Virus record (IMG/VR): IMGVR_UViG_3300036770_007327 | Span: 1,653 to 65,652 of that record | Strand: one strand, 5' to 3' | DNA length: 64,000 bases | Source of the DNA: a virus | Lineage: Duplodnaviria; Caudoviricetes | Shown: piece after piece, positions 6,929-38,530 of the stretch | Position numbering within the stretch: position 1 is the stretch's first letter | Layout: the number at the start of each line of letters is the position of its first letter | Translations under genes and position numbers: made by a program | Notes under the pieces: generated by a model | Database searches by the model: none | What the model saw: the letters and a program-made list of their open reading frames with translations, nothing else | What the model was told of the DNA's origin: nothing

Positions 6929-7591
6929 ATGGCGTATTTAAATCATAACATACCGACCATTACGTGTCTTATTCGTAATGAATATCTTTTTAATTTTGAA
7001 AAAGGTTATAAAGAGTTTACAAAGGCAGATGTTCATAGTGTCGCTTCTATTCAAAAGAGAGTTCCGCTCTTCGAAGCGTTTCTTGAAAACGGAGTGAATT
7101 GGACTCGAAGACCTATACATGCTTTCTGCTGGAGAGAGGACGCAGAGATTCTACCTCTTAGCGAACATATGTATTGGGATTGCTTCTCATCTTATGTTGA
7201 TGTTCAAGTAAGGGAAAGAATGTCTGGTCTTCGAGCGGATTTAATTTCCCTTACCAGTCAGAAGCGTCAAGGCATTTATATGTTTACGCTCGACTGGTCT
7301 CATGAAAATAGAAATATGTTAGATACAAATTTCTCCGAGACCCCTGAACATAAATGCGGGCATCTGTTTAAAATGGATAATGGCAATTATTTTATATATC
7401 CTAATAATAGAATTATTTGGAATGATACTGCTTGGACATTCAATAAAATTGATAAAAATCCTGGATATAAAATCGATATGAATGTATATTCAGTGGAAAA
7501 TAAAAATAATTTTGAAACTGATTATAATTATTTTACAAATTTTAATAATGTCGATCAAAAAACAACAGGAAATAATTCATTCAATAAATAA
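6929..7591 (+). CDS. Conserved phage hypothetical protein
   Basis: ATG 1 nt after queE stop; WDCFS, Y.FT.DW, EHKC.H, YPNNRI motifs. Confidence 0.75.
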   Translation: MAYLNHNIPTITCLIRNEYLFNFEKGYKEFTKADVHSVASIQKRVPLFEAFLENGVNWTRRPIHAFCWREDAEILPLSEHMYWDCFSSYVDVQVRERMSGLRADLISLTSQKRQGIYMFTLDWSHENRNMLDTNFSETPEHKCGHLFKMDNGNYFIYPNNRIIWNDTAWTFNKIDKNPGYKIDMNVYSVENKNNFETDYNYFTNFNNVDQKTTGNNSFNK

Positions 7592-7958
7592 CAATACCAA
7601 AACAAGATTAAAGCCATCTACGGTATGTGATGGGGTGGGGGTATTTGCTTTAATTAATATTAAAGAAGGAGAAAATATTTTTCCAGATATTATTTCCGAT
7701 AGCAATCTTATTGAATGGGAATATATAGATAACAATGTAGTTAAAAAATATTTAAACTCTCTATGTAATACAGATAATAAAGGAATATATCTTTCAAGGC
7801 TGCCTAATGAGATTAACATCTCATATTATGTTAATCATTCTGATAACCCCAACGTTTTTCATAATTTAGACTTGGATCAATATTTCGCTCTCAAGGAAAT
7901 ATATGCGGGGGAAGAAATATTATGTTGTTATACAGAGCAGGAAAAAAAAGACTTTTAA
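7548..7958 (+). CDS. SET-domain lysine methyltransferase
   Basis: GVGVFA..I..GE, Y.NHS..PN, AL..I..GEEI...Y. Confidence 0.88.
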   Translation: MSIKKQQEIIHSINNNTKTRLKPSTVCDGVGVFALINIKEGENIFPDIISDSNLIEWEYIDNNVVKKYLNSLCNTDNKGIYLSRLPNEINISYYVNHSDNPNVFHNLDLDQYFALKEIYAGEEILCCYTEQEKKDF

Positions 7959-7966
7959 TATAAATA
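7959..7966 (+). promoter_or_regulatory. T4-type late promoter TATAAATA
   Basis: Exact T4 late consensus 6 nt before the DUF1501 ATG. Confidence 0.7.
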
Positions 7967-7972
7967 AGAAAA

Positions 7973-9238
7973 ATGGATAGACGTAATTTTATACAAGTTG
8001 GTGGGTTAGGGGCTTTCGGTCTCACCTTCAGCGATATTTTAAGAGCACAATCATCGTATGATGGACCTGCTCCAAAAATAAAATCGGTAATCAATATATT
8101 CTTACCAGGGGGTATGTCAGTTCAAGAATCATGGGACCCTAAACCGAACGCACCGGTAGAATATAAAGGGCCCTATAATGCTATAGATACCTCTGTACCT
8201 GGCATTCAACTTTCAGAACTATTTCCTAATGTTGCGAGAATTATGGATAAGGCTACAATTATTAGGTCTATGACTCACGGGGAAGCAGCCCATGAGAGAG
8301 GCACTCATAATATGTTTACAGGGTGGAAACCTTCCCCCGCGCTCAAATATCCCGCTCTCGGCTCTATTGTATCGCACGAACTTGGTATACGAAATAATTT
8401 ACCCGCTTATATTTCTATACCCAATCAAGCAAATGAGTTTGATACTACAGGGTTTATCTCGTCCAAGCATGGAACATTTAGTCTTGGATCTGATCCTGCT
8501 GATCCTAATTTCAAAGTTAGAGATTTAACTTTGCCGGATAATATAACTATTGAGAGATTTGATAGGAGAAAAAATATACTCGAAACTGTAGATAACAAAT
8601 TTAAGAGTATTGCCGCGTCTGATAATGTATCAGCAATTGATGAGTTTTATCAAAGAGCATATAGTCTCATATCATCAAAAACTGCTATTGAGGCTTTTGA
8701 TATTTCAAAAGAAGATGCTAAAGTTAGAGAAAATTATGGAAATAACCAGGCTGGTCAGAGATTGTTAATGGCGCGGCGGCTTGTAGAAGCAGGTACTCGC
8801 TATATTACAGTCACTTACGGTGGTTGGGATCATCATGACGGCATTCAAGGTGCTATGAAATCAAATGCGCCTGCGCTTGATAAAGCCCTGAGTCAACTTA
8901 TTGTTGATTTAGAGGAAAGAGGAATGTTAAATGAAACTCTTGTTTTAGTTACTTCCGAGTTTGGCAGAACCCCTAAGATAAATAATACGGCAGGTAGAGA
9001 TCACTGGCCGAGAGTGTTTAGCACATTCGTAGCAGGCGGGCCTGTAAAGCGTGGATTTGTATATGGAGCGTCAGACTCTCTTGGAGGAGAAGTTGAGGAT
9101 ACGCCAGTATCTCCTGGAGATATATCAGCAACTGTTTTTAACCTACTAGGTATAAATCCAGAGAAGACGCTCATGACTCCAGATCTTAGACCAATTATGA
9201 TTTCCCCCGGAAAAATCTTAACGGATATTTTCGGATAA
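7973..9238 (+). CDS. DUF1501-family protein with Tat signal
   Basis: MDRRNFIQ twin-Arg; GGMS...DPKP, ARRLVEAG, GGWDHH, SEFGRTP, GRDHWP. Confidence 0.92.
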   Translation: MDRRNFIQVGGLGAFGLTFSDILRAQSSYDGPAPKIKSVINIFLPGGMSVQESWDPKPNAPVEYKGPYNAIDTSVPGIQLSELFPNVARIMDKATIIRSMTHGEAAHERGTHNMFTGWKPSPALKYPALGSIVSHELGIRNNLPAYISIPNQANEFDTTGFISSKHGTFSLGSDPADPNFKVRDLTLPDNITIERFDRRKNILETVDNKFKSIAASDNVSAIDEFYQRAYSLISSKTAIEAFDISKEDAKVRENYGNNQAGQRLLMARRLVEAGTRYITVTYGGWDHHDGIQGAMKSNAPALDKALSQLIVDLEERGMLNETLVLVTSEFGRTPKINNTAGRDHWPRVFSTFVAGGPVKRGFVYGASDSLGGEVEDTPVSPGDISATVFNLLGINPEKTLMTPDLRPIMISPGKILTDIFG

Positions 9239-9246
9239 AAAAAAAC

Positions 9247-9741
9247 ATGAATAAAAAAACAACCCTAATAGTGATAGCAGCGCTTCTATTTGTTCAAAAT
9301 AGTCACGCTGATAATAGTAATTTTTTAACTCGGATAGTTAAAAAAATTGCAGAGGCTTCACAGCCGGCCAATATTAACGGTAACCTAAAAATATATACGG
9401 TAGCAAAAAAGCAAGTAGGCACTTATTATAGGCCTGGTGTAAAGGCGCAATGCGCCAATTTTGTTGGGCATGTTGTCTCAAAAGCCGGTATTGAAAAGCC
9501 TGCTTCTGCTAGCATGGCTCGGGCATGGCTCAAGTGGGGAAAACCGGTTAGTTGGTCCAATAAAAAGCCGGGCGATTTAATTATTACCTGGAGGGGCAGT
9601 CGGGGAGGCTCGTATGGCCATATTTTAATATACGCAGGAGACGAAAAAGCGATACATCGATCTACAAGTGGCAAACTTGTTTCATATGTAGATACGGATC
9701 GATATCAATCTAAAGTTCTTGGAGTGCGTCGAGCAGACTAA
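9247..9741 (+). CDS. Secreted CHAP/NlpC-P60 cysteine peptidase (putative endolysin)
   Basis: Signal peptide; QCANFV Cys, A..W..WG, PGD, GHI His. Confidence 0.8.
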   Translation: MNKKTTLIVIAALLFVQNSHADNSNFLTRIVKKIAEASQPANINGNLKIYTVAKKQVGTYYRPGVKAQCANFVGHVVSKAGIEKPASASMARAWLKWGKPVSWSNKKPGDLIITWRGSRGGSYGHILIYAGDEKAIHRSTSGKLVSYVDTDRYQSKVLGVRRAD

Positions 9742-9763
9742 AATTAACATTAACAAAAAAATT

Positions 9764-9798
9764 AAACCCTTTCTTCTTTCGAAGGAAGGGTTTTTTTT
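9764..9798 (+). terminator. Intrinsic terminator
   Basis: AAACCCTTTCTTC/GAAGGAAGGGTTT stem followed by T run. Confidence 0.85.
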
Positions 9799-9825
9799 GT
9801 GTAAATTGCTTAAATAATAATTAGG

Positions 9826-11631
9826 ATGAAGGCAAAAATTATTATCTTGTTTGTCGGTCTTTTAGCACTAATGTCAAGTGCTCAAGAATATGCGGAAATT
9901 AACAATAGATTAAACCAAATCTATAAAGAAAAAAATATCCAACCCGGAGGTAGAATATCCGATGAAAAATATATTCGTCGAGCCTATCTACAAATAGCGG
10001 GGAGAATCCCAACTATAAATGAATATAATGAATTCATTTTAAACACAGACCCAAACAAGCGACACAAACTGGTTGATAAATTGATTGCCAGTGAAGATTA
10101 TGTTTCTCATTGGTTTAATTATTGGGCAGATATCCTTAGAACAGAAGACAGATTTAATGTTAACTATATGGTTGGTGAGCCTTATATTGATTGGATTAAA
10201 TCTTCAATAAAAGAAAACAAGCCGTATGATACTTTTGTAAAGGAAATTATCACCGCTACTGGAACTGTTTATGAGTCTCCCGCGACGGGGTATTTTTGGA
10301 AAGATAGAGGAATGCCTCTTGATAATTTAGCAGGTACCTCTGAAATATTTTTTGGAACAAATATAAGTTGCGCTCAGTGCCATGATGATCCATTTAATGA
10401 TTGGACCCAAATGGATTATTATAGATTTGCTGCCTTTTTTGTTCAAACTCAGGAAGCGGCAGGCACAAAAGAAGAGAAAGAAAATATTAATAAACTTCGA
10501 GACTATGTAATAGAAACTCGAAAAAAATATGAGAGTGAATCTGCCAGTGAGTCTCCTTCTGTAGAGCCAGATGAGTTGACTAAAAAGATTATTGCTCGGG
10601 GAACGGAAAACAATATAACTCAAATATTACGCGCATCTAATATAGCGATAGAAGTTAATAAAGATCGCAAAATGAAGTTGCCTCATGATTATAAATATGA
10701 AGATGGCGAACCTAATCAAAGTGTTACGCCGGCCTTCTTATTCGGCAGCAAAGACGTGAAGACTCCTGAAGATTATCGCAAAGATTTTGCTGATTGGGCC
10801 GTATCAAAAGATAACCCCTATTTTACAAGGAATATTGTAAACAGGTATTGGAACGCTGTATTCGGAGTCCCTATAATAACCCCTATCGAAGAGATATCTA
10901 CAACAACAAATATTCAAGATGAAAAACTAATATCTCTTTTAGAAAAAATATTTAAAGAGCAAAATTATGATACTAAAAAGTTTTTGGCTACTCTTTATAA
11001 AACAAATCTATTTGAAAGATTTAGTTATGTTGAGGAAAGTTTAGATAAGTATAATTTTCAAGGGCCCTTGCTACGAAGGCTCTCTGCGGAACAGGTTTGG
11101 GACTCCTTACTTACCTTATCTGTGGATAATGTAAACTATTTTAAATCTACATATTCGGCAGAATATAATACTCTAATGAATGTAGACGCATCTAAAATAA
11201 CTATAGAAGACTCTATTAAAATGGTAGATACCTATAATAAAATACGCAGCGCAAAATATGAGACGGCCCAAAAATCAAATGGGCTTGTTCTTATTAGAGC
11301 ATCTGAAATAACTATACCAAACGCAACAACAAATATATTGAGAGAATTAGGGCAATCAGAAAGATTACTTATACAAGACTCTACCAGAGAAGGGTCAGTA
11401 ACTCAATCTATAATGTTTATGAACGGGCCCATTTCAAGTATAACAACCGATAAGAATTCTGCTCTAATGAAGAGTATACAAGGCAAAGAGGCTAAAGATG
11501 TAGTAGATATTGTGTTTAAATCCATCCTACAGAGATTGCCATCTATACAAGAGAGAGATTTATTCTTACAGTATCCTAAAGAGGATTTAATATGGGCTTT
11601 AACCAACTCACACGAATTTAAATTTAACTAA
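9826..11631 (+). CDS. DUF1549/DUF1553 (PSCyt2/PSD1) protein with CxxCH motif
   Basis: Signal peptide; RRAYL...GRIPT, W...WAD, CAQCHD, IVNRYW, RRLSAEQVWDS, WAL.NS.EF. Confidence 0.92.
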   Translation: MKAKIIILFVGLLALMSSAQEYAEINNRLNQIYKEKNIQPGGRISDEKYIRRAYLQIAGRIPTINEYNEFILNTDPNKRHKLVDKLIASEDYVSHWFNYWADILRTEDRFNVNYMVGEPYIDWIKSSIKENKPYDTFVKEIITATGTVYESPATGYFWKDRGMPLDNLAGTSEIFFGTNISCAQCHDDPFNDWTQMDYYRFAAFFVQTQEAAGTKEEKENINKLRDYVIETRKKYESESASESPSVEPDELTKKIIARGTENNITQILRASNIAIEVNKDRKMKLPHDYKYEDGEPNQSVTPAFLFGSKDVKTPEDYRKDFADWAVSKDNPYFTRNIVNRYWNAVFGVPIITPIEEISTTTNIQDEKLISLLEKIFKEQNYDTKKFLATLYKTNLFERFSYVEESLDKYNFQGPLLRRLSAEQVWDSLLTLSVDNVNYFKSTYSAEYNTLMNVDASKITIEDSIKMVDTYNKIRSAKYETAQKSNGLVLIRASEITIPNATTNILRELGQSERLLIQDSTREGSVTQSIMFMNGPISSITTDKNSALMKSIQGKEAKDVVDIVFKSILQRLPSIQERDLFLQYPKEDLIWALTNSHEFKFN

Positions 11632-11635
11632 TATT

Positions 11636-12886
11636 ATGAAAGCGCAAAATAGACGACAATTCATATCAAATATAGCAAAAGCAGGCCTAGGGGTTTCTGC
11701 TCTGTCCTATATACCTAAATCATTTGCTTCCCAAAATACAGGTAAGGCAAAACATATTATATATATCTATATGGAGGGTGGAATGTCTCATCTTGATACA
11801 TTCGATCCAAAAGAGCATCCCGAGACAAAAGGTAAGTTTAGTAAAATATCTACTTCTGCCGACGGTGTGTATATTTCTGAACACTTAAAAGGTATAGCGA
11901 AACATATGGATAAAGCCGCTATTGTGCGGTCTATGGCAGTTACGACTGGAGACCACGCAGGGGCTCAATATAACGTTAGAACATCTTATAAGCAAATAGG
12001 CACTATAATCCACCCCGCTCTAGGCGCTTGGATGGCTAAATTTAACAAACAAGACACGACCTTACCAAGCAATGTTCTAATATCTGGGCCTGCTAAACAC
12101 CCCGGCTCGGGTTGGATGCCTAAAATTTATTCCCCCATACCGGTTATTGATCCATCTAAAGGTCTTCAATACTCTGATATTAAAGATATAGAAATGTTTA
12201 AATCGAGATGGGAGATACTAAACAAACTCAATAAGAACATTAATGAGAATGCTAAATCCCCTGAAGTAAGAGCATATGTTGAGTTCTATGATGAAACAAT
12301 AAAACTTCTACAAAGCAAAGAACTTGAATCGTTTGATATTAGCAAGGAAGATAAAACCTTACGCGAGACAAAGTATGGTAATAATCGCTTCGGTCAGGGC
12401 CTCTTGCTAGCGAGAAGACTAGTAGAAAATGGAGTTTCTTTTGTAGAGGTCAAATCTGGAGGCTGGGATACTCACGTTAATAACTTTGATGCCTTAGAAA
12501 CATCCTTGCCTCAGCACGACCAATCAATAACCGCTCTTATAGAGGATTTACAAGAGAGGGGATTGCTCGAATCTACTCTAATTGTTGTAGCAACAGAGTT
12601 TGGTAGAACCCCTATTATAAATGTTAATGATGGAAGAGACCACTGGCCTGGTGCTTTTTCTTGCGCTCTAATAGGAGCGGGCGTTAAGGGAGGAACAGTC
12701 TTTGGTAGCACTGACGAAAAAGGCGCTATTGTCGCTGAGGGTAGTAGAAAGATAGACCCTAAAGACTTTAACGCTACTATTGCTAAGATTGCCGGGCTAC
12801 CACTTGAGGAGGAATTCTTCTCACCGAACGGCAGGCCGTTTAAAATAGCCAGTGATGGTAAGCCTATAGATGAAGTAATTGGATAA
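11636..12886 (+). CDS. Second DUF1501-family protein with Tat signal
   Basis: NRRQFI; GGMSHLDTFDPK, GGWDTH, TEFGRTP, GRDHWP. Confidence 0.92.
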   Translation: MKAQNRRQFISNIAKAGLGVSALSYIPKSFASQNTGKAKHIIYIYMEGGMSHLDTFDPKEHPETKGKFSKISTSADGVYISEHLKGIAKHMDKAAIVRSMAVTTGDHAGAQYNVRTSYKQIGTIIHPALGAWMAKFNKQDTTLPSNVLISGPAKHPGSGWMPKIYSPIPVIDPSKGLQYSDIKDIEMFKSRWEILNKLNKNINENAKSPEVRAYVEFYDETIKLLQSKELESFDISKEDKTLRETKYGNNRFGQGLLLARRLVENGVSFVEVKSGGWDTHVNNFDALETSLPQHDQSITALIEDLQERGLLESTLIVVATEFGRTPIINVNDGRDHWPGAFSCALIGAGVKGGTVFGSTDEKGAIVAEGSRKIDPKDFNATIAKIAGLPLEEEFFSPNGRPFKIASDGKPIDEVIG

Positions 12887-12915
12887 AAAAAGGGCCCCTT
12901 AAGGGGCCCTTTTTT
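12885..12915. terminator. Bidirectional terminator
   Basis: AAAAAAGGGCCCCTTAAGGGGCCCTTTTTT palindrome between convergent genes. Confidence 0.9.
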
Positions 12916-13169
12916 CAAGGCACTCTGTTAACTGTTCTCCAGTCCTTTACTTTTTCGAGATATCTAGTTTGTTGGATAGACTTTTTTATAAGTTCATCAG
13001 AAACTATATAGTTATTTTCCCCATCAGGCAAATTCGTGCTCTCTATTACGGGCAATCTAGTATATGCTTCCCATTTAGGCTCAATAGGAAAAATACTATA
13101 TTTTATGCTCGGGTTAGATGTTTTACATCCTACCGTTAGGAAGGCTAAAGATAATAAAAGGTATTTCAT
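12915..13169 (-). CDS. Small lipoprotein, possible o-spanin
   Basis: Lipobox LTVGC; Pro-containing periplasmic part. Confidence 0.6.
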   Translation of the reverse strand: MKYLLLSLAFLTVGCKTSNPSIKYSIFPIEPKWEAYTRLPVIESTNLPDGENNYIVSDELIKKSIQQTRYLEKVKDWRTVNRVP

Positions 13170-13175
13170 TTTCGC

Positions 13176-13457
13176 TTAGTATTTTTTTTTGGTGGTAATT
13201 TTTTTAGGTTGATTCTTCTCTACATTAGCCTTTTTACGGCCTCTCTTTTTTGGAGCATTAGAAGCAGTATAACCTAATTCCTTATTCAGCTCCTCTATAT
13301 TTTTTTCTTTTAACTTTATATCAGTAGCATTATCTTCTACTTCGTTAGTTGTTTGCTGCTCCTTTACTTCGTTAATTGTCAATCGTTCTTTCATAGTACC
13401 ATATATCTCGCTTAGAAGACTAACAACTTTTTCTATTATAACAATAATACTTTTCAT
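13176..13457 (-). CDS. Hypothetical coiled-coil protein, possible spanin partner
   Basis: Upstream of the lipoprotein; TATAAATA at 13465-13472 (minus). Confidence 0.55.
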   Translation of the reverse strand: MKSIIVIIEKVVSLLSEIYGTMKERLTINEVKEQQTTNEVEDNATDIKLKEKNIEELNKELGYTASNAPKKRGRKKANVEKNQPKKITTKKKY

Positions 13458-13514
13458 ATGATTTTATTTATATGTATAGTTGTAAAAGTAAAATGAAAAT
13501 ATAAATAAAATTAT

Positions 13515-16290: not shown

Positions 16291-19200
16291 ATGAACAATA
16301 CTATCAGCGTTATTAAGCGAAACGGCGACAAGGCCAAATTTGACGAGAAAAAGATTAGAGACACTGTAAAGCGCGCCTGTAAGAACCTTAAAAGCGTAGA
16401 TTCAAAGTTAGTTATATATAACGCAGAGGTTAAACTATACGACGGGGTCACCACAAAGGAAATTGATGAGTCCTTGATTAAATCTGCGCGTGCATTGGTC
16501 GAGGAAGACCCTGAATATAAGTATGTTGCTGCTCGATTGCTTCTTTTTACTATCTATAAATCCTGCTTCGGTCAAAGCACTGACGAGTCTGTGTTTGATA
16601 TGCAATATAAGGCTTGCTTTAAAACAAATCTCGATTCGCTTATTAAGGAAGGTATAGTAAATCCTGAGCTTAAGAAGTTTGATTTTAAACGTATCGTAGA
16701 AGCTCTTGACCCTTCTAGGGATGAGCTATTTGCGTTCGAAGGCCTTGCTGCTGTCGCTGAAAGATATCTCTTTAAAGTTAAGAATCGTATTCTTGAAACC
16801 CCGCAAGCTTGGCTTATGCGAGTCGCTATGGGACTTTCTATTGGAGAGAAAGAAGAAGAAAGAACAGATAGAGCCATTGAGTTCTATGAGATGCTTTCTA
16901 CTTTCTCTTATATGTGTTCTACCCCGACTCTTTTCTATTCCGGGTCGACTAAGAACCAGCTTAGTTCTTGCTTCTTAAATACCTTTGAAGATTCTATTTT
17001 TGGTATCTTTGATGGCTTACATCAAGAGGCTCAAAAGTCTAAGTTTGCTGGCGGTCTTGGTATGGATTTGACTCCATTCAGAGCAGGTAATGCGTACATT
17101 AACGGTACCAATGGATATACCCAGGGAGCTGTTTTCTTCTGGAAACTTTTCAATGATATGCTTGTAGCGGTAAACCAATGCTTTCCAGGCAATACAAAAG
17201 CAATTACACGAAATGGTATTAAATCTCTACAAAATATTGAAGCAGGTAATGATTATGTCTTAACAAAGAATGGGTGGCGGTTAGTAGAAGAATTATATTA
17301 TTACCCTAAAGATGGTAAGGAGCTTGTCGATATTAAGCTTAGACACGGATACGAGCCAGTGACTTCAACCAAGGGACATCCTTTCTATACCATTACTGGC
17401 CATCGAAGCGATGTCACTGGTCTTTGTAACAAAGAAGTACTTAAATTATTAGAGCGGGGAGAACAGAAAGTTGAATGGGTTGAAGCTAAAGATTTAAAGA
17501 TCAATCAATATATCGGTTTTCCTATCCCAACAGATACAGAACCTCATCGAGATTGGAAAGTTGAGGATGCTAAATTATACGGCCTCATACTTGGCGATGG
17601 CTGGGTAACTGAATCGAAGTCTGAGATGGGAATTTGTTTTAACTCTGAAACGAATATAGAGACAATTGAATTTGTTTTGAACTATTTAGATAAAAGGAAA
17701 ATTAATTATTGGGTTAATGATGGCAAACAGATTGAAGGTCTTAGTGATAAATATGTATCGTTTGTATGGTCCTATAAAAAGCATATTGATAAGATGCCTT
17801 TTAAATACGACGATATTTATTGCGAAAAAAGAAAAAAACGCATTAGCGGTAGATTATTAACTATGAGAAATGAGTTAATTCACCATATTATTGAGGGCTT
17901 AGTACTATCTGACGGTCATGTTCATTTTAATAAAGAAATAACGTTTTATAATAATAGCGAAGAACTTATAGACACAGTAAGATATCTCCTACTTAAAGTA
18001 GGGGTATTGTGTAGTGGAAATATAAACAAGGGTAAAATAAATGGTAATGCAAAATTAAAAGGTATCTGTAAGGTTAATTCTGATGATAGCTTTGTACTTA
18101 GAATACCTGCTTATGAAGAATTGGCCACGATTCTAGATATAACCCCCGTAACTAAAAAACATTGGCTAACATATAACGGAATGGTCTTTACTAGAATAAA
18201 AAGTATTTCATATTCTGCCCGAGATTTTCCTATTGATTTATACGATTTAAAGGTTAATGGTGAACCAAATTATACGTTAATATCGGGAGGATTAGTTCAT
18301 AATGGCGGCAAGCGTCGTGGGGCTGGTTGCGGCTATCTTGAAACTTGGCACTATGATATCGAAGACTTTATTGTTCTTAGAAAGAATGTGGGAGACGAAA
18401 GACGTCGAACCCATGATATGAATACCGCTAACTGGATTCCAGACTTGTTTATGAAGCAGGTAAACGTCGACGGGCCGTGGTATCTTTTCTCGCCTGACGA
18501 AACTCCTGACTTACACTCTCTCTTCGGTGCTGCGTTTGAAGCGAGATATTGGGATTATGTTGAGAAGGGCAAGCGCGGTGAGCTTAATCTCTTCAAAGAA
18601 GTAAAGGCTAAAGATCTTTGGAAAAAGATGCTCGCTATGCTTTTTGAAACCGGTCATCCCTGGATTACGTTTAAAGATCCTTGTAATGTAAGATATACTA
18701 ATCAGCATGTCGGGGTTGTTAACAGCTCGAACCTTTGCACTGAAATAACTCTCCATTCAAAGGCTACTCAATATGAGCCAAATAATAATAGAGCGATTAA
18801 AGAGTATGGTGAAACTGCTGTTTGTAATTTAGGTTCTATTAACTTAAAAGAGCATCTAATCAAGTTAGATGGAAAATATACAATCGATTATAATAAACTC
18901 GCTAAGACTATCAAAGCGGGCACGAGAATGCTTGATAACGTTATAGATATTAACTTCTACCCGACCCAAGAAGCTAAAAACTCTAACGTCAGGCATCGCC
19001 CGATCGGGATGGGGTCTATGGGCTGGCATGATTTGTTTATTGCTCTTGATATTAACTACGATTCAAACGAAGCAGTTGAGCTTAGTGATAAATTGTACGA
19101 ATTTATTTCTTATCATACTATTCTTGCGAGTAGTGAATTAGCTAAAGAGCGTGGCAAGTATAGCACTTATGAAGGGTCTCTTTGGAGCAAGAACATATTG

Positions 19201-19908
19201 CCGATTGATACATATAAGGAATTGGTAGCCTCGAGAATTAATAAAGCGGAAGATGACTACTTTATTAACAGAGGAGAAGAACTTGATTGGTCAGTTGTTA
19301 GGAATCATATTGAAGAATACGGTATGCGTAATTCGAATACAATGGCTATTGCCCCGACCGCTACTATTTCTCAAATCGTAGGATGTTCTTCTTGTACCGA
19401 GCCATACTTTAACGTATTGTTTGTTCGCTCTGTTTTAGGAGGAGACTTTACAGTTATTAACGAATGGTTTGTTAATGATATGAAGTCGAGAAATATCTGG
19501 AATCACAATATGATTACTAAGATTAAGCAGGTCGATGGAGACCTTTCCAGAATACCTGAGATACCAGCAGACATTGCTTCTAAGTATCGCGACGCATTTA
19601 ATATGGACCAGTTCCAATTGCTTAAAGCTGCGACAGCGAGAGGTAAATGGATTGATATGGGAATGTCGGTCAATCTTTTCAATAATAAAACTAGCACAAA
19701 GTATCTACACGAGCTTTATACCACTGCCTGGAATATTGGATTGAAGACCACCTACTACTTGAGAAATAAGAGTGCTTCTCAGGTAGAGAAGGCTTCTACT
19801 ACTTCTGTATCTAGCTTTGAACCTATGGCATTAGAATCTCTATCCGAAAGCGAGCTTGAAAGTAAGGTATGCCGCTTAGACGATCCAACTTGTGAATCTT
19901 GCCAATGA
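16291..19908 (+). CDS. nrdA: Class I ribonucleotide reductase alpha subunit with ATP cone and an intein
   Basis: VIKRNG cone, STPTL, QLSSCFL, SNLCTE, CNLGS, IAPTAT, GLKTTYY, C-terminal CESCQ. Confidence 0.97.
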   Translation: MNNTISVIKRNGDKAKFDEKKIRDTVKRACKNLKSVDSKLVIYNAEVKLYDGVTTKEIDESLIKSARALVEEDPEYKYVAARLLLFTIYKSCFGQSTDESVFDMQYKACFKTNLDSLIKEGIVNPELKKFDFKRIVEALDPSRDELFAFEGLAAVAERYLFKVKNRILETPQAWLMRVAMGLSIGEKEEERTDRAIEFYEMLSTFSYMCSTPTLFYSGSTKNQLSSCFLNTFEDSIFGIFDGLHQEAQKSKFAGGLGMDLTPFRAGNAYINGTNGYTQGAVFFWKLFNDMLVAVNQCFPGNTKAITRNGIKSLQNIEAGNDYVLTKNGWRLVEELYYYPKDGKELVDIKLRHGYEPVTSTKGHPFYTITGHRSDVTGLCNKEVLKLLERGEQKVEWVEAKDLKINQYIGFPIPTDTEPHRDWKVEDAKLYGLILGDGWVTESKSEMGICFNSETNIETIEFVLNYLDKRKINYWVNDGKQIEGLSDKYVSFVWSYKKHIDKMPFKYDDIYCEKRKKRISGRLLTMRNELIHHIIEGLVLSDGHVHFNKEITFYNNSEELIDTVRYLLLKVGVLCSGNINKGKINGNAKLKGICKVNSDDSFVLRIPAYEELATILDITPVTKKHWLTYNGMVFTRIKSISYSARDFPIDLYDLKVNGEPNYTLISGGLVHNGGKRRGAGCGYLETWHYDIEDFIVLRKNVGDERRRTHDMNTANWIPDLFMKQVNVDGPWYLFSPDETPDLHSLFGAAFEARYWDYVEKGKRGELNLFKEVKAKDLWKKMLAMLFETGHPWITFKDPCNVRYTNQHVGVVNSSNLCTEITLHSKATQYEPNNNRAIKEYGETAVCNLGSINLKEHLIKLDGKYTIDYNKLAKTIKAGTRMLDNVIDINFYPTQEAKNSNVRHRPIGMGSMGWHDLFIALDINYDSNEAVELSDKLYEFISYHTILASSELAKERGKYSTYEGSLWSKNILPIDTYKELVASRINKAEDDYFINRGEELDWSVVRNHIEEYGMRNSNTMAIAPTATISQIVGCSSCTEPYFNVLFVRSVLGGDFTVINEWFVNDMKSRNIWNHNMITKIKQVDGDLSRIPEIPADIASKYRDAFNMDQFQLLKAATARGKWIDMGMSVNLFNNKTSTKYLHELYTTAWNIGLKTTYYLRNKSASQVEKASTTSVSSFEPMALESLSESELESKVCRLDDPTCESCQ
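17179..18303 (+). mobile_element. 375-aa intein with LAGLIDADG endonuclease; +1 residue is Gly
   Basis: AVNQ|CFPGNT...T.GHPF...LYGLILGDG...IEGLVLSDG...YDL.V...LVHN|GGKRRGA. Confidence 0.93.
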
Positions 19909-30697: not shown

Positions 30698-32191
30698 TCA
30701 AAAATATACTGATTGGCTCGCCGGCGAAAACGCCGCACCGAGTCCCTGAAGAATAATAACGTGGTAGTAGAGATTAGCACCGAAGATATTATCAACAACA
30801 CCGTATCTGGTCAAGAGACCGACACGAGGCGCGAAATCATTCGGACCAATCGTACGCTGTACCATGACCGGAATGTACGGGCAGTAGATAATACCAGTAT
30901 CGTAGAACTCAGGACCCTTATAGCCAAGGAGCGCATATTCAACGCCCTTGGAGTAGGTATTAGCAGAGCCATCCGGGAGAGTGCCATTGCTATAACCAGG
31001 TTCAGTTCCATAAATGCCGGTATTTTGAACTTCCGTACGAGTGTCACGATAAACATTGAAACGACCACCAAGATTACCTACCTTAGCAACACCGACGGGC
31101 TGAGTATTCACGTTGCCTTGGACCGGAACCCATTGGAATTCCGGAAGCATTTCGAGAATAGCGGCAACACGCGGGGTACAAACAATAAAGTTCGCAGCAC
31201 CACGACGGTTACGTACAGCAATACGGTTAGCTTCGATAATAAGTCTTTGATAGAAGTCTCTGTTGCGTTCTACAAGCCAGCGACCATCGGCAGAAGCAGG
31301 GGACCAGACGGAGTACCCAACACCATAAGAGGTGTTAAGACAGGTCTGAATCATACGAACAATCATCTCACGGTCGATTTCCGCTTGGATCTCATACGCC
31401 ATGGCGTTAGTGATCTCAGCATCAACATCGATACCGTTCATGTTCTTAAGGTCCTGCTCAAGTTCGACGGACCAGCGCGCGCCAAGACGTCTCGTACCAG
31501 CTTCAACAGCGGTCTTCTCGAACGAAATGTCGACTTGAGGGATGTTATTATTGATTTCCCAGTTCTTAAGGATCTCGGCGACGCCTTGATCCTGAGCTGC
31601 GAAGTTCCAATAAGTAGACTCCCCGGAAAGTCTCGAGGACGAGGTACCGGTAAAGCGAGTATCGATGAACTGATAGCCAAGCTCTTTGCTGTTAGCGTTA
31701 CTAACGTTGGTGTGAGTACCAACGGTACCGCCACCATCAATACCACCAGTACCAAGACCAGTAGTATTGTATTTATAACGCAACGCGAAAGCAAGGCCAA
31801 CAGGGCCACTCATGGGCTGAACGCCAACGATCTCGTTACTTATTAATTCAGGGAAAGTACGACGAATCATCGGAATAAGAATCTTCGGAAGACGAGCATC
31901 GCCAGTAGCATAACCGTCATTGCTAGTAATCGTGCCGGGAGGGCTATAAACCCCACCAACAGAAGACCCGGACCCAAAAGAGCCCCCATTCCCGCCGTAG
32001 CTGTTCTCCATAAGGAGACCACCTTCGGGGTTACGGCACCAGGCCTCTTGGTTCTCAAGCATGATAGCAGTATTGATACGAGTCCGCTCATCTTCAATTG
32101 GAGCGATAGACTTCGAAGAGTAGTTGAGCACTGGTGCCCACTTCTCAAGAAGAGTTTTCGCTTTATTTTGATCGATATAGTTTCTATTCAT
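30698..32191 (-). CDS. Major capsid protein (T4 gp23-like)
   Basis: KW.P.L, LENQ, VGVQPMSGP.GL.FALR, ELEQDL, EIDRE, YCPYIP, TRYG. Confidence 0.98.
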   Translation of the reverse strand: MNRNYIDQNKAKTLLEKWAPVLNYSSKSIAPIEDERTRINTAIMLENQEAWCRNPEGGLLMENSYGGNGGSFGSGSSVGGVYSPPGTITSNDGYATGDARLPKILIPMIRRTFPELISNEIVGVQPMSGPVGLAFALRYKYNTTGLGTGGIDGGGTVGTHTNVSNANSKELGYQFIDTRFTGTSSSRLSGESTYWNFAAQDQGVAEILKNWEINNNIPQVDISFEKTAVEAGTRRLGARWSVELEQDLKNMNGIDVDAEITNAMAYEIQAEIDREMIVRMIQTCLNTSYGVGYSVWSPASADGRWLVERNRDFYQRLIIEANRIAVRNRRGAANFIVCTPRVAAILEMLPEFQWVPVQGNVNTQPVGVAKVGNLGGRFNVYRDTRTEVQNTGIYGTEPGYSNGTLPDGSANTYSKGVEYALLGYKGPEFYDTGIIYCPYIPVMVQRTIGPNDFAPRVGLLTRYGVVDNIFGANLYYHVIILQGLGAAFSPASQSVYF

Positions 32192-36709: not shown

Positions 36710-38530
36710 CTATGCCGGCGCTTCGGGTGCTGGCGGCGCCCCCTCTGCGGGGGGCTCGGCCGTCTCGGCTGGGACCGGCTCTTCAAGACCGGTAGCGGCT
36801 GGTCCTCCGCTAAATGCTGGAGGCCCTCCCGCGCCGAGGTCTAATCCCCCGCCTCCCATATCTCCTCCCATATCACCGCCGCCAGCAGCTCCTGCTGTTG
36901 CTTCAGCGCTCGCCGCTACCTGTTCGCGCCAGTTTGGCCCCATATTGGTAATTTGCGCAAGCTCCCACTCGAGCTCTTTATCAACACGAAGATACTGTCT
37001 ATTTGCCAATATAGCATGGTCATCCCATCCAAGATATTTCTTCTGGCAATATGTTTTCGATATAAGTTCGTTCTGCGATAAGTTAGTATAATTATCAAGC
37101 TTAAGTCCTAATTTCTGAGCTTCTCTCAACTCGTAATAGTTGGACGGGGGATTAAAATCAAAGTCAAAATCCGTCTCTTTAATCTCTAAGTTATTCCAAA
37201 GTTTGGTCATTTTGAGATGGGTAATAAACCCTTGCTTCAAACTCGTCGCGAAGTGTTGTTGAATTCTAACAATGAACTTAGCAAATTTAAGTTCTTCGCG
37301 AAGCATTGATTTCGGGTCCTGGAGAGCCGACTCTTCACTCAATCTATTAACAGGGACCTTTAATGCTTTATATAACTTCTTAACAAAATACATTAGGTCA
37401 GTCAACTCTCCAAGATTCGCGCCGCCGGCGAGCTGAGTTACGGAAGTTCCCTCAGCGCCTTGCCTCTTAGCAAACCAGAACGCATCAAGCATTGATTGAG
37501 GGTTAAACTTATTAACAATATCTCCTTGACCGGAATCAAATGTCTTTGTAGACCAATATTGAGACATTAGTTTGCGGAGATATTGCTCAGCCTTTGGAGG
37601 GGCCATATTGCCTACATCTACATTGAATACTAATCTTTCTGGCGCTCTCACCATTCTATAAATAAGAATAGCATCTTCAATTAAAGATAACTGTCTATAA
37701 GCGCGGCGAGCGTTTTCAATAAAAGGCAGTCTAACATTTTTAGTTTCGTTCCATATACCACTATCAAAATAAACTACCTGATTTTCATTGAGTGGTATAT
37801 AATCAAAATTATCTTCAGCCTTATTAGGCTTGTTGGGATCAAGAATCGGCTTTCTATATAAGTATCCTTTAATTAAAAGGTTTTGTATATTATTATAAAT
37901 TGGATCTATTAACTCTGTAGGCACTCTCACTACACCTAATACACCCTTATCCGCGTGCTTAGAGTGTATAATATGCTCGAAGTATACTTCACCTTCAATA
38001 AGAATATCCCTAAAATATCCCCATCCTTTTCTTTCAAGTTCAAAATAATTTATATATTTCTTATACTCCTCAAGAAGTTGCTGCTTATCATCAAACGAAA
38101 GTTCTTCTTCGAAGGCTCTATCAAATCGTAATTTTACAATATCCCCATTATCATCTTTATTGATAATCTCGTCACATATCTCATCAAGAGCATCAGCAAT
38201 TTCCGCGAACGCAGCCATTACTCTATAATCATTTATTCTAGCATGCTTGTTCTTCTGAACGTTAGCATACATCATCTCGCTGAACTTGCCAGCGGCATCA
38301 ACCATCCCAATGCCCTCGTTATTGAATTCGTTCGACTGAGATATAGAATATTTGGCAAGAACTTCTGGTCTTCTTACTCCTTTGTTTTCAAAGTGCTTAA
38401 ACTTAGGGTTAGATTCGTGCGTTGTATCTATTGCCTCAAATCCCGAATAGGGTAATTTCGAAGCAACATAGTTCATTAAGTTGCGACCGAAAGTAGATTG
38501 TTTGCCCTCGCCTGTAAAGTTTTTTGCCAT
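36710..38530 (-). CDS. Portal protein (gp20-like)
   Basis: QL..IEDA..IYR..RAPER.VF.VDVGNM..KAE.Y, L.GG.NLG, RE.LKF. Confidence 0.97.
   Translation of the reverse strand: MAKNFTGEGKQSTFGRNLMNYVASKLPYSGFEAIDTTHESNPKFKHFENKGVRRPEVLAKYSISQSNEFNNEGIGMVDAAGKFSEMMYANVQKNKHARINDYRVMAAFAEIADALDEICDEIINKDDNGDIVKLRFDRAFEEELSFDDKQQLLEEYKKYINYFELERKGWGYFRDILIEGEVYFEHIIHSKHADKGVLGVVRVPTELIDPIYNNIQNLLIKGYLYRKPILDPNKPNKAEDNFDYIPLNENQVVYFDSGIWNETKNVRLPFIENARRAYRQLSLIEDAILIYRMVRAPERLVFNVDVGNMAPPKAEQYLRKLMSQYWSTKTFDSGQGDIVNKFNPQSMLDAFWFAKRQGAEGTSVTQLAGGANLGELTDLMYFVKKLYKALKVPVNRLSEESALQDPKSMLREELKFAKFIVRIQQHFATSLKQGFITHLKMTKLWNNLEIKETDFDFDFNPPSNYYELREAQKLGLKLDNYTNLSQNELISKTYCQKKYLGWDDHAILANRQYLRVDKELEWELAQITNMGPNWREQVAASAEATAGAAGGGDMGGDMGGGGLDLGAGGPPAFSGGPAATGLEEPVPAETAEPPAEGAPPAPEAPA

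What the first reader, a model, noticed from the sequence alone, without database searches (positions are those of the whole stretch)
7959..12915. Phage-borne DUF1501 + DUF1549/DUF1553 periplasmic module under late control (top candidate system)
Seen: two intact Tat-signal DUF1501 paralogs and a Sec-signal DUF1549/1553 protein with CAQCH. They carry phage late-type promoters (7959, ~9810), their own terminators and phage-like AT content, so they look domesticated rather than contaminating. The paralogs differ at a conserved site (GGMSVQES versus GGMSHLDT) but keep WDxH, EFGRTP and DHW. Established: these families are adjacent, highly expanded signature genes of Planctomycetes and Verrucomicrobia, function unknown, with DUF1501 resembling the alkaline-phosphatase/sulfatase fold. 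I know of no characterised phage version. Inference: the phage builds or poisons a host periplasmic complex late in infection, for envelope remodelling, lysis, superinfection exclusion or P/S scavenging. It could be a minimal model for this uncharacterised system, and it indicates a PVC host.
Basis: partly seen in the sequence, partly recalled or inferred. Interest (0 to 1): 0.85.

Follow-up and report, generated by a model that had tools for sequence, protein, structure and literature searches.

The report
Phage-borne PVC-type DUF1501/PSCyt2 periplasmic cassette
An uncultured freshwater T4-like phage carries, and has long conserved, four exported genes copied from Verrucomicrobia-type bacteria: two phosphatase/sulfatase-fold proteins, a haem-motif partner and a cell-wall peptidase, which gives a small handle on a large bacterial gene family of unknown function.

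Summary
They are DUF1501-1 (7973-9238), an unmentioned exported NlpC/P60 peptidase (9247-9741), DUF1549/DUF1553 with CAQCH (9826-11631) and DUF1501-2 (11636-12886). The contig is a 65.6-kb fragment of a T4-like phage.

Misassembly is excluded. Three independent metagenome contigs keep the same four-gene order and the same flanks, and contigs from three other studies bridge both borders. The genes have phage-like GC3 (0.27-0.32) and dN/dS of 0.02-0.19.

The cassette has two units.
- PSC-D2 is a pair. The complex model supports binding (0.68 against 0.00 for controls). One lake relative lacks exactly this pair.
- D1 is an orphan copy from the conserved PVC cluster DUF1501 - PPC protein - Big_2/PSCyt2/PSD1. 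Its partner genes were not found in the phage records searched.

D1 models as an alkaline-phosphatase-superfamily fold (Z 20 to NPPs, 17-19 to sulfatases) and has no formylglycine motif. For both paralogues the nearest cellular copy lies on one verrucomicrobial MAG contig.

Function, haem binding, expression timing and host are not shown. I found no phage report in print, in PHROGs or in GenBank phages. This scan has already flagged the same module on other DNA (171 notes, at least 121 genomes).

The parts
7959..7966 (+). TATAAATA, matching the T4-type late-promoter consensus, 6 nt before the D1 start codon
   Evidence: 9 of 21 copies in the window lie 0-44 nt upstream of same-strand starts. 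Function and timing were not tested.
7973..9238 (+). DUF1501-1 ('D1'), 421 aa, twin-arginine signal. It is an orphan orthologue of the DUF1501 gene of the conserved PVC cluster DUF1501 - PPC protein - Big_2/PSCyt2/PSD1.
   Evidence: Pfam E 9.2e-108. AF2 model pLDDT 91.9. Alkaline-phosphatase-superfamily fold, Z 20. 54-60% identical to PVC genome copies. Tree placement at 99*.
9247..9741 (+). Exported NlpC/P60 (CHAP-like) cysteine peptidase, 164 aa, Sec signal. It starts 8 nt after D1 and is followed by a terminator.
   Evidence: PF00877 E 3.1e-8 and PF05257 E 2.5e-5. It matches the lysin domains of phrog_329 and phrog_1259. The same position is kept in L163, L164 and L165 at 38-46% identity. 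dN/dS 0.14-0.20.
9764..9793 (+). Intrinsic-terminator-like hairpin plus T-run between the D1-NlpC/P60 unit and the PSC-D2 unit
   Evidence: 13 pairs. (-19.2 kcal/mol, z -4.8).
9826..11631 (+). PSCyt2 (DUF1549) + PSD1 (DUF1553) protein ('PSC'), 601 aa, Sec signal, single CAQCH motif
   Evidence: Pfam. CxxCH invariant in 117 sequences. Only two Cys. The C-terminal PSD1 motifs form the modelled interface with D2.
11636..12886 (+). DUF1501-2 ('D2'), 416 aa, twin-arginine signal. It starts 4 nt after PSC and is the modelled partner of PSC.
   Evidence: Pfam E 8.7e-100. Complex score 0.68 against a best control of 0.00. It falls in a clade with no genome row, at 96*.
12886..12915 (.). Perfect GC-rich palindrome flanked by an A-run and a T-run. 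It is a bidirectional terminator-like hairpin shared with the convergent gene 12915-13169.
   Evidence: -22.1 and -24.5 kcal/mol; 0 of 200 shuffles as good. Not listed by the consensus scan.

Best explanation
This is a genuine, long-resident cassette of a freshwater T4-like phage. It encodes four proteins exported to the host periplasm and consists of two separable units.

Unit 1 (TATAAATA, D1, NlpC/P60, terminator).
- D1 is a Tat-exported metalloenzyme-like protein with an alkaline-phosphatase-superfamily fold.
- It was copied from the conserved verrucomicrobial/planctomycetal cluster DUF1501 - PPC protein - Big_2/PSCyt2/PSD1, without its partners.
- It is followed by a secreted peptidoglycan peptidase.

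Unit 2 (PSC, D2, terminator).
- This is the usual two-gene unit of the family.
- The Sec-exported CxxCH protein docks through the conserved C-terminal motifs of its PSD1 domain onto the helical cap of the Tat-exported DUF1501 protein, giving a periplasmic heterodimer.

My odds for each step:
- Shown: a real phage cassette under selection (about 0.95).
- Supported by a model only: PSC-D2 bind (about 0.7).
- Inferred: D1 works with the host's own PPC/PSD1 partner, or with the phage PSC, as a phage-supplied catalytic subunit (about 0.4).
- Inferred: the chemistry is hydrolysis or transfer of a phospho- or sulfo-ester at a metal centre, without formylglycine. The purpose would be to keep or boost a host periplasmic scavenging or envelope function during infection (about 0.3).

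The overall confidence given (0.6) is for the statement as a whole.
For: Phage identity:
- T4-type major head protein, portal and RNR.
- IMG/VR virus record of 65,652 bp, CheckV 31% complete.
- Major capsid protein about 32% identical to cyanomyophages.

Not a chimera:
- L163, L164 and L165 keep the order D1 - NlpC/P60 - PSC - D2 and the window's flanks.
- The left border is bridged by an X2 contig (7400-8820) and an X3 contig (7277-7990). The right border is bridged by an X5 contig (9690-13029).

Conservation:
- 213 of 269 candidate IMG/VR stretches encode a D1 relative.
- Five loci (L075, L072, L071, L069, L021) keep D1...PSC-D2 directly beside the tail-sheath-stabiliser and portal genes.
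- All 4 of the 4 records that are at least 90% complete (204-243 kb) have a T4 major capsid protein.

Selection: for pairs with dS below 1, dN/dS is 0.027-0.19 for D1, 0.041-0.093 for PSC and 0.019-0.106 for D2.

Amelioration: module GC3 is 0.27-0.32. Cellular loci have total GC of 0.42-0.68.

Two units:
- 53 of 66 genome loci with enough flank have D1, then a gap of about 2.6 kb, then an 810-1026-aa PSC.
- The gap gene carries PPC, and the PSC carries Big_2 + PSCyt2 + PSD1.
- No PPC and no full PSCyt2 were found in four near-complete phage records that each carry DUF1501 genes.
- One X5 contig joins 9742 to 12903 and so lacks exactly PSC-D2.

Binding:
- Scores 0.68, 0.66 and 0.68 against a best control of 0.00. 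The mark was reached by 58 of 80 solved complexes and 2 of 110 mismatched pairs.
- Partner pLDDT at least 88, with at least 84% of contacts shared between runs.
- Interface columns are 26% identical between D1 and D2 (12 of 46), against 36% overall (146 of 407).
- The window D1 is 68% identical to 57 cellular orthologues at the interface-equivalent columns, against 57% elsewhere.

Fold:
- pLDDT 91.9.
- ENPP7, ENPP6, ENPP4 and Xac NPP at Z 19.9-20.0, rmsd 3.0-3.3, 243-244 residues aligned. PafA at 19.4. Sulfatases at 17-19.
- Conserved D55, S99, H107, D286, H288, E329, D343 and H344.
Against: - There are no expression data, and no RNA run is listed.
- No activity, metal or haem measurement exists.
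- The canonical Asp-His pair after the central strand reads Glu-Phe in the HMM alignments to sulfatases and LtaS. The nucleophile could not be assigned because I had no coordinates. Catalysis is therefore not assured.
- The complex score is a model's confidence, obtained with my own alignments.
- The PSD1 docking motifs are shared by cluster-type and pair-type PSC proteins, so partner specificity is open.
- The variant lacking PSC-D2 rests on one 356-letter contig of a roughly 91%-identical relative, laid at 90% likeness.
- The TATAAATA-to-ATG spacing (6 nt here; 0-11 nt in 8 of the 9 positioned copies) leaves almost no leader under the T4 rule. That rule is recalled, not tested.
Confidence: 0.6

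Rival explanations
1. Periplasmic oxidoreductase. The Tat-exported DUF1501 subunit carries a redox-active metal centre and passes electrons to the Sec-exported c-type haem of PSC. This resembles other pairs of a Tat catalytic subunit with a cytochrome c subunit; the SorAB type is recalled, not tested. The phage would tap it for energy or detoxification.
For: - CxxCH is invariant in 117 sequences, and these are the only two cysteines of PSC.
- The Tat/Sec split of the two partners is visible in the translations.
- Kamneva et al. 2012 proposed electron transport for the module (PMC3542564, passages read).
- A weak FMN-reductase-like gene sits between D1 and PSC in the second phage clade (E 6.5e-5, 23 bits, below the cut-off of 24).
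Against: - Every structural neighbour of D1 at Z 15 or more is a hydrolase, transferase or mutase of the alkaline-phosphatase superfamily.
- The modelled interface involves PSD1, not the CxxCH-bearing PSCyt2 domain.
- Four near-complete phage records carry DUF1501 genes without any full PSCyt2.
Confidence: 0.2
2. Envelope or lysis role. The exported proteins remodel the host envelope late in infection, for example by phospho-group transfer as LtaS, EptA or PbgA-type members of the fold do. They would act together with the secreted NlpC/P60 peptidase and the neighbouring spanin-like genes, for lysis or superinfection exclusion.
For: - D1 is followed 8 nt later by an exported NlpC/P60, before the terminator.
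- The convergent neighbours are an 84-aa lipobox protein and a 93-aa coiled-coil-like protein preceded by TATAAATA.
- LtaS, EptA, PbgA/YejM and MCR-1 appear among the fold matches at Z 15.4-16.7, and LtaS gives the best sequence-profile hit (E 0.017).
Against: - NlpC/P60 is present only in the window's own clade. The second and third phage clades keep D1, PSC and D2 without it.
- The cellular homologues occur in tens of copies per genome (97-123 first-look candidates in three PVC genomes), often with carbohydrate-binding domains (PMC5615132, passages read). This fits substrate-diverse catabolism better than envelope building.
Confidence: 0.15
3. Contaminating or misassembled bacterial DNA, or a recent neutral passenger with no role for the phage.
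For: - The families are bacterial signatures, and IMG/VR contains some host-flank DNA.
- One phage record (L026) has lost PSC and keeps only a 133-aa D2 remnant. One relative lacks PSC-D2. The pair is therefore dispensable in some lineages.
Against: - Same gene order and flanks in three independent metagenome contigs.
- Contigs of three further studies bridge both borders.
- Module GC3 is 0.27-0.32, while cellular loci have total GC of 0.42-0.68.
- dN/dS is 0.02-0.19.
- The phage D2 clade at 96* contains none of the 12 best hits from 802 PVC genomes.
Confidence: 0.03

Closest known systems
DUF1501 + PSCyt1/PSCyt2/PSD1 'conserved genetic module' of Planctomycetes, Verrucomicrobia and Lentisphaerae (Kamneva et al. 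2012, PMC3542564; also He et al. 2017, PMC5615132)
   Same: - Same Pfam families over threshold.
- Same adjacency and order, PSC then DUF1501.
- Same Tat/Sec signals and CxxCH.
- D1 is an orthologue of the DUF1501 of the cluster DUF1501 - PPC protein - Big_2/PSCyt2/PSD1. This matches the paper's description of its most complex cluster in the passages I read.
   Different: - It is carried by a T4-like phage at phage composition.
- D1 has lost its PPC and PSC partners.
- PSC is the minimal 601-aa form, without PSCyt1, Big_2 or carbohydrate-binding domains.
- An NlpC/P60 gene is inserted.
- The function is unknown in the cellular system too.
Alkaline-phosphatase superfamily enzymes: NPP phosphodiesterases, PafA-type phosphatases, S1 formylglycine sulfatases, LtaS/EptA transferases
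   Same: - Fold: Z 19.9-20.0 to NPPs, 19.4 to PafA, 17-19 to sulfatases and 15-16.7 to LtaS, EptA and PbgA. Foldseek E 5e-8 to sulfatases and LtaP.
- Conserved acidic and His residues lie near canonical ligand positions.
   Different: - 10-17% sequence identity.
- No C/S-x-P/A-x-R formylglycine motif, and D1 has no cysteine at all.
- Glu-Phe stands in place of the canonical Asp-His.
- A large helical cap serves as the docking site for a partner.
- Export is by Tat.
Phage auxiliary metabolic genes for periplasmic or nutrient functions in T4-like phages (for example cyanophage pstS and phoA, and psbA as a phage-supplied subunit of a host complex). This comparison is recalled, not searched.
   Same: - Host-derived.
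- Kept under purifying selection in T4-like genomes.
- Placed among phage genes behind a phage promoter-like motif.
   Different: - The biochemical function is unknown.
- The genes are not represented in PHROGs v4. Among GenBank phages, PSC has no match and D1 has one weak partial match.
- The host is uncultured.

Membership tests
DUF1501 (PF07394) | Match to the family model over Pfam's gathering score | tested here: met
   361.3 and 335.0 bits against a cut-off of 27.
DUF1501 (PF07394) | Twin-arginine (Tat) signal peptide | tested here: met
   RRNFIQ and NRRQFIS, each followed by a hydrophobic stretch. RR is at least 90% conserved in 150 sequences. This rests on sequence motif only; export was not measured.
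PSCyt2/PSD1 (PF07583 + PF07587) | Both domains over the gathering score, in the order PSCyt2 then PSD1 | tested here: met
   150.3 bits (cut-off 29.8) at residues 25-209, and 95.4 bits (cut-off 28.5) at residues 318-582.
PSCyt2/PSD1 (PF07583 + PF07587) | c-type haem covalently bound at CxxCH | not testable with these tools
   The motif is invariant and the protein has a Sec signal, but haem attachment needs a haem stain or mass spectrometry.
Kamneva two-gene module (PSCyt/PSD1 gene next to a DUF1501 gene) | Adjacent, co-oriented PSC and DUF1501 genes | tested here: met
   PSC ends at 11631 and D2 starts at 11636. The same order appears in most metagenome loci listed.
Kamneva multi-gene cluster (DUF1501 - PPC protein - PSCyt2/PSD1 with Ig-like domain) | The DUF1501 gene is accompanied by the PPC-domain gene and the long PSC gene | tested here: not met
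   D1 is an orthologue of that DUF1501. However, no PPC match was found in the window's record or in four near-complete related records, and there was no second PSCyt2. The window's record is only 31% complete.
S1 formylglycine sulfatases | C/S-x-P/A-x-R motif that is converted to formylglycine | tested here: not met
   No such motif in D1 or D2. D1 has 0 cysteines and D2 has 1.
NPP / alkaline phosphatase type bimetallo-phosphoesterases | Six canonical metal ligands plus a Ser/Thr nucleophile | tested here: inconclusive
   The fold match is Z 20, and D286, H288, E329, D343 and H344 are conserved. But Glu-Phe replaces Asp-His, and no residue-level superposition was available.
T4-type late promoter | TATAAATA at about -10 of a late transcript | tested here: inconclusive
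   The exact motif lies before D1 and is enriched by position. Before PSC there is only a 6-of-8 match. The motif also precedes nrdA. Transcription was not measured.
Phage auxiliary (host-derived) gene | Lies inside a bona fide phage genome, with phage genes on both sides, and is under purifying selection | tested here: met

The most novel reading that the evidence does not exclude
The phage supplies only the catalytic DUF1501 subunit (D1) of the most conserved PVC DUF1501 - PPC - PSCyt2/PSD1 machine. It plugs this subunit into the host's own scaffold during infection, much as cyanophages supply PsbA. Next to it the phage carries a complete minimal haem-protein/AP-fold heterodimer (PSC-D2) that occurs as a natural presence/absence variant in lakes. 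Together these would be the first tractable single-copy models for a gene family that fills PVC genomes with tens of copies. They would also be a direct marker of Verrucomicrobia-infecting T4-like phages.
Probability: 0.3. Interest if true: 0.75.

Novelty: new variant of a known kind. Interest (0 to 1): 0.6.

Why it matters
The DUF1501/PSCyt/PSD1 genes are among the most expanded gene families of Planctomycetota and Verrucomicrobiota. Their function was still described as unknown in the 2012 and 2017 papers I read.

A phage that keeps one orphan DUF1501 and one minimal pair under strong selection does three things:
- It narrows the system to three small proteins that can be expressed and assayed.
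- It gives a modelled interface to mutate.
- It offers natural variants with and without the pair, which can be correlated with lake chemistry.

It also ties an uncultured, cosmopolitan clade of freshwater T4-like phages (holders in 12 studies) to verrucomicrobial hosts, for which I know of few described phages (recalled, not searched).

Tried and rejected
Searches and models that gave little or nothing:
- Single-protein scans of IMG/VR found no relatives. Only the alignment-based scan did.
- The first AF2 run, with 23 sequences, was poor (pLDDT 57.3) and was not used.
- PDB by sequence gave only marginal hits for D1 (best E 0.017-0.022) and none for PSC.
- NCBIfam has no model for D1, PSC or D2.
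- The protein atlas gave only weak leads for PSC (best 0.81, below the 0.9 mark), and I draw nothing from them.
- No tRNA genes in the window.
- No RNA holder is listed among the sequencing runs, so nothing can be said on expression.
- X6 laid only short, unlike pieces and was ignored.
- The consensus terminator scan did not list the 12886-12915 hairpin. I folded it instead.

Questions left open or not attempted:
- The donor phylum of D2 cannot be decided by identity alone. The best identity was 48% in 401 Verrucomicrobiota genomes (21 with E at most 1e-100) and 52% in 401 Planctomycetota (54 with a match).
- I considered and dropped a Pfam survey of the neighbours of cellular PSC-D2 pairs, and a spacer search for the host.
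- No residue-level active-site superposition was possible, because model coordinates are not exposed.

Material I could not see:
- Supplements are closed. Supplementary figures S13 and S14 and table S5 of PMC3542564 may bear on whether my D1 cluster is exactly their four-gene cluster.
- Of papers, I saw search listings and passages of PMC5615132, PMC5418858, PMC3542564 and PMC2754498.

Rows dropped:
- One search was given 50 of the 80 IMG/VR loci, and 47 records were held.
- The trees used sets made non-redundant at 88% identity: 217 of 326 rows, 89 rows and 76 rows. In one search, 32 of the remaining 54 genome rows were drawn at random.

Full report
WHAT IS THERE.

The interval holds four co-oriented genes, not three.
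- D1, 7973-9238, 421 aa, DUF1501, E 9.2e-108.
- An exported NlpC/P60 peptidase, 9247-9741, 164 aa, E 3.1e-8.
- PSC, 9826-11631, 601 aa, PSCyt2/DUF1549 (E 9.4e-44) plus PSD1/DUF1553 (E 4.6e-27).
- D2, 11636-12886, 416 aa, DUF1501, E 8.7e-100.

- Both DUF1501 proteins start with a twin-arginine motif. The RR pair is at least 90% conserved in 150 family members.
- PSC and the peptidase have Sec-type signal peptides.

PSC carries one CAQCH.
- It is invariant in 117 relatives.
- It uses the protein's only two cysteines.

The regulatory features are partly as described.
- An exact TATAAATA lies six bases before the D1 start codon.
- A strong hairpin plus T-run follows the peptidase gene.
- A perfect GC-rich palindrome flanked by A- and T-runs follows D2. 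It serves the convergent gene too.
- The claimed second promoter near 9810 is only a 6-of-8 match.

THE CONTIG IS A PHAGE, AND THE CASSETTE BELONGS TO IT.

The window is nearly all of a 65,652-bp IMG/VR record with a CheckV completeness of 31%.
- It has a T4-type major head protein, portal, tail-sheath stabiliser, helicase and ribonucleotide reductase.
- Its capsid and portal proteins are only about 31-33% identical to the nearest GenBank phages, which are cyanomyophages.

Three independent metagenome contigs (L163, L164, L165) keep the order D1 - NlpC/P60 - PSC - D2.
- The protein identities are 71%, 38-46%, 59-61% and 71-72% respectively.
- They also keep the window's flanking genes: the QueE-like gene upstream, and the lipoprotein and two small genes downstream.

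Contigs assembled in other studies bridge both borders.
- Left border: X2 covers 7400-8820 and X3 covers 7277-7990.
- Right border: X5 covers 9690-13029.

The cassette has phage-like composition. Its GC3 is 0.27-0.32 and the window's GC is 0.367. The loci of its closest cellular relatives have total GC of 0.42-0.68.

IT IS OLD AND SELECTED IN PHAGES.

An alignment-based scan of IMG/VR found 213 relatives of D1 among 269 candidate stretches. I kept 80 loci.

A second clade of T4-like phages (L075, L072, L071, L069, L021) has this layout:
- D1, then one or two small genes, then PSC (40-41% identical) and D2 (56-58%).
- These lie directly upstream of the tail-sheath-stabiliser, portal and head genes.

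A third clade (L073, L043, L047) has D1 and PSC-D2 about 6.5 kb apart. L048 and L037 appear to belong with it but are cut at a locus end: L048 shows D1 and PSC, and L037 shows D1 only. L026 has lost PSC and keeps a 133-aa D2 remnant.

I searched 47 IMG/VR records for the T4 capsid family. Six have it, including all four records that are at least 90% complete (204-243 kb).

Nei-Gojobori dN/dS for pairs with dS below 1:
- D1: 0.027-0.19.
- PSC: 0.041-0.093.
- D2: 0.019-0.106.
- The peptidase: 0.14.

TWO UNITS WITH DIFFERENT HISTORIES.

In bacterial genomes the closest D1 relatives are 54-60% identical. Their records are labelled mostly Verrucomicrobiales or Akkermansiaceae and Pirellulaceae or Planctomycetaceae.
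- In 53 of the 66 loci with enough flank, D1 sits about 2.6 kb upstream of an 810-1026-aa PSC protein.
- The gene in between carries PPC domains. The long PSC carries Big_2 + PSCyt2 + PSD1.
- This matches the most complex DUF1501 cluster described by Kamneva et al. (PMC3542564, passages read).

The phage has D1 but not those partners.
- No PPC match and no second PSCyt2 were found in the window's record.
- None was found in four near-complete related phage records either. Three of those carry two DUF1501 genes, and the fourth (G018) carries one plus a remnant.

PSC-D2 is instead the ordinary two-gene unit of the family, with PSC immediately followed by DUF1501, as in most metagenome loci.

One contig of a roughly 91%-identical relative in a lake metagenome joins 9742 to 12903. 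It goes from the stop of the peptidase gene to the final terminator and so lacks exactly PSC-D2. It is a single 356-letter contig, so this is a lead. It agrees with the loss seen in L026.

WHERE THE GENES CAME FROM.

In an IQ-TREE of 89 D1-type sequences, a group supported at 99* contains:
- the window's clade,
- the second and third phage clades,
- three genome rows: L114, L144 and L155.
This group nests among Verrucomicrobiota rows with moderate support (82-87).

The phage D2 sequences form a group at 96* with no genome row. That held even after I added the 12 best hits from 401 Verrucomicrobiota genomes (best identity 48%) and 401 Planctomycetota genomes (best 52%). Phage clades are 56-61% identical to each other.

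The nearest genome row to the phage D2 clade (support 88) lies on the same MAG contig, L114, whose D1 is sister to the phage D1s.

A verrucomicrobial donor is therefore the best reading. That Verrucomicrobiota are also the host is an inference.

HOW IT MAY WORK.

The D1 model:
- With a 150-sequence alignment D1 models well (pLDDT 91.9, pTM 0.89).
- Its neighbours all belong to the alkaline-phosphatase superfamily. NPP phosphodiesterases score Z 19.9-20.0 with rmsd 3.0-3.3 over 243-244 residues. PafA scores 19.4. Sulfatases score 17-19. LtaS, EptA and PbgA score 15-16.7.
- It is not a formylglycine sulfatase: the motif is absent and D1 has no cysteine.
- Conserved D55, S99, H107, D286, H288, E329, D343 and H344 could build a metal site.
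- The canonical Asp-His pair aligns with Glu-Phe.

The complex model:
- It supports PSC-D2 binding. The scores are 0.68, 0.66 and 0.68 against a best control of 0.00.
- The mark was reached by 58 of 80 solved complexes and by 2 of 110 mismatched pairs.
- Partner pLDDT is at least 88, and at least 84% of contacts are shared between runs. I used my own alignments.
- The interface joins the most conserved C-terminal motifs of PSD1 (PSC residues 512-535 and 576-600) to the helical cap of D2 (residues 162-225).

What the interface says about D1:
- The interface columns have diverged between D1 and D2 (12 of 46 identical, against 146 of 407 overall).
- In D1 they are better conserved with 57 cellular orthologues than the rest of the protein is (0.68 against 0.57).
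- The PSD1 docking motifs are shared by cluster-type and pair-type PSC proteins.
- This fits D1 still docking onto a PSD1 partner, most simply the host's. It does not prove it.

WHAT IS NOT SHOWN.
- Expression and its timing. TATAAATA is enriched by position, with 9 of 21 copies just upstream of same-strand starts. But it also precedes nrdA, and its spacing to the start codons is very short.
- Haem binding, metal content, substrate, the role of the peptidase, and the host.

IS IT KNOWN?
- Among GenBank phages, PSC has no match and D1 has one weak partial match.
- PHROGs v4 has no family for D1, PSC or D2.
- Full-text searches for DUF1501, DUF1549, DUF1553, PSCyt2 and the Pfam numbers gave 12 and 6 papers. 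None is about a phage copy, apart from a weak CDD note on a 61-aa Pseudomonas phage protein.
- 'Phage' combined with 'planctomycete-specific cytochrome' gave none.
- Within this scan the same module has already been noted on other DNA: 171 notes in at least 121 genomes. My results agree with those notes.
- For this window they add the two-unit decomposition, the orphan status of D1, the mapped interface, the variant lacking the pair, and the NlpC/P60 insert.

VERDICT.

This is a new, phage-borne variant of a known but functionally orphan bacterial module. Interest is moderate to high (0.6).

Noticed in passing
window 12915-13169 (-) and 13176-13457 (-), with TATAAATA at 13465-13472 (-): Convergent with the cassette lie an 84-aa proline-rich protein with a lipobox-like LTVGC and a 93-aa protein with a coiled-coil-like middle. 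They are preceded by TATAAATA. They could be an o-spanin/i-spanin pair, which together with the secreted NlpC/P60 would make a lysis neighbourhood. The lipoprotein is conserved in L165 at 41%.
   Followed up: partly
window 5764, 7959, 13472, 13500, 16273, 30623, 34053, 53064: In 8 of the 9 positioned TATAAATA copies the motif ends only 0-11 nt before the start codon. If the motif is a T4-type -10 element, the mRNAs would be leaderless or nearly so. The motif also precedes nrdA, so it is not restricted to structural genes.
   Followed up: partly
L028, L030, L070, L074 (IMG/VR loci): These viral contigs carry three or four tandem DUF1501 paralogues of different subfamilies with no full PSC gene in the locus. 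The related records that were searched lack a T4 capsid match (G020 and G022). A different phage group seems to collect orphan DUF1501 genes.
   Followed up: no
L026:12381-12782: In a 204-kb, 96%-complete T4-like record, PSC is gone and D2 is reduced to a 133-aa remnant, while D1 is intact.
   Followed up: partly
L075:11558-12376, L021:6376-7143, L071:9637-10089: In the second phage clade a 255-272-aa gene with a sub-threshold FMN-reductase/flavodoxin-like match sits between D1 and PSC (E 6.5e-5, 23 bits against a cut-off of 24). In L071 a 150-aa P-loop kinase follows D2; its best match is APS kinase (E 1.1e-7, 32.5 bits).
   Followed up: no
G047:C1:49221-49358, G042:C1:119589-119795, G044:C1:22081-22269: Complete T4-like phage records hold small ORFs (193-216 aa) that match only the N-terminal part (positions 17-87) of the PSCyt2 model. 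They may be remnants or a separate small domain protein.
   Followed up: no
window 30698-32191 and 36710-38530 versus 7973-12886 and 16291-19908: The capsid and portal genes have GC3 of 0.52-0.55. The cassette and RNR have 0.27-0.34. This is a strong codon-usage split within one phage.
   Followed up: no
L155, L149, L129, L159 (genome contigs): Contigs with PVC-type clusters of D1, then a gap of about 2.5 kb, then PSC sit in MAGs labelled Klebsiella, Polynucleobacter, Chitinophaga and Alcaligenaceae. They are probably mis-binned contigs, so taxon labels of such MAGs should not be read as the family's range.
   Followed up: no
window 7482-7958 (+): A SET-domain protein gene (E 6e-11) ends one base before the TATAAATA. 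It is absent from the syntenic locus L164, where a 139-aa ORF with no Pfam match sits instead.
   Followed up: no
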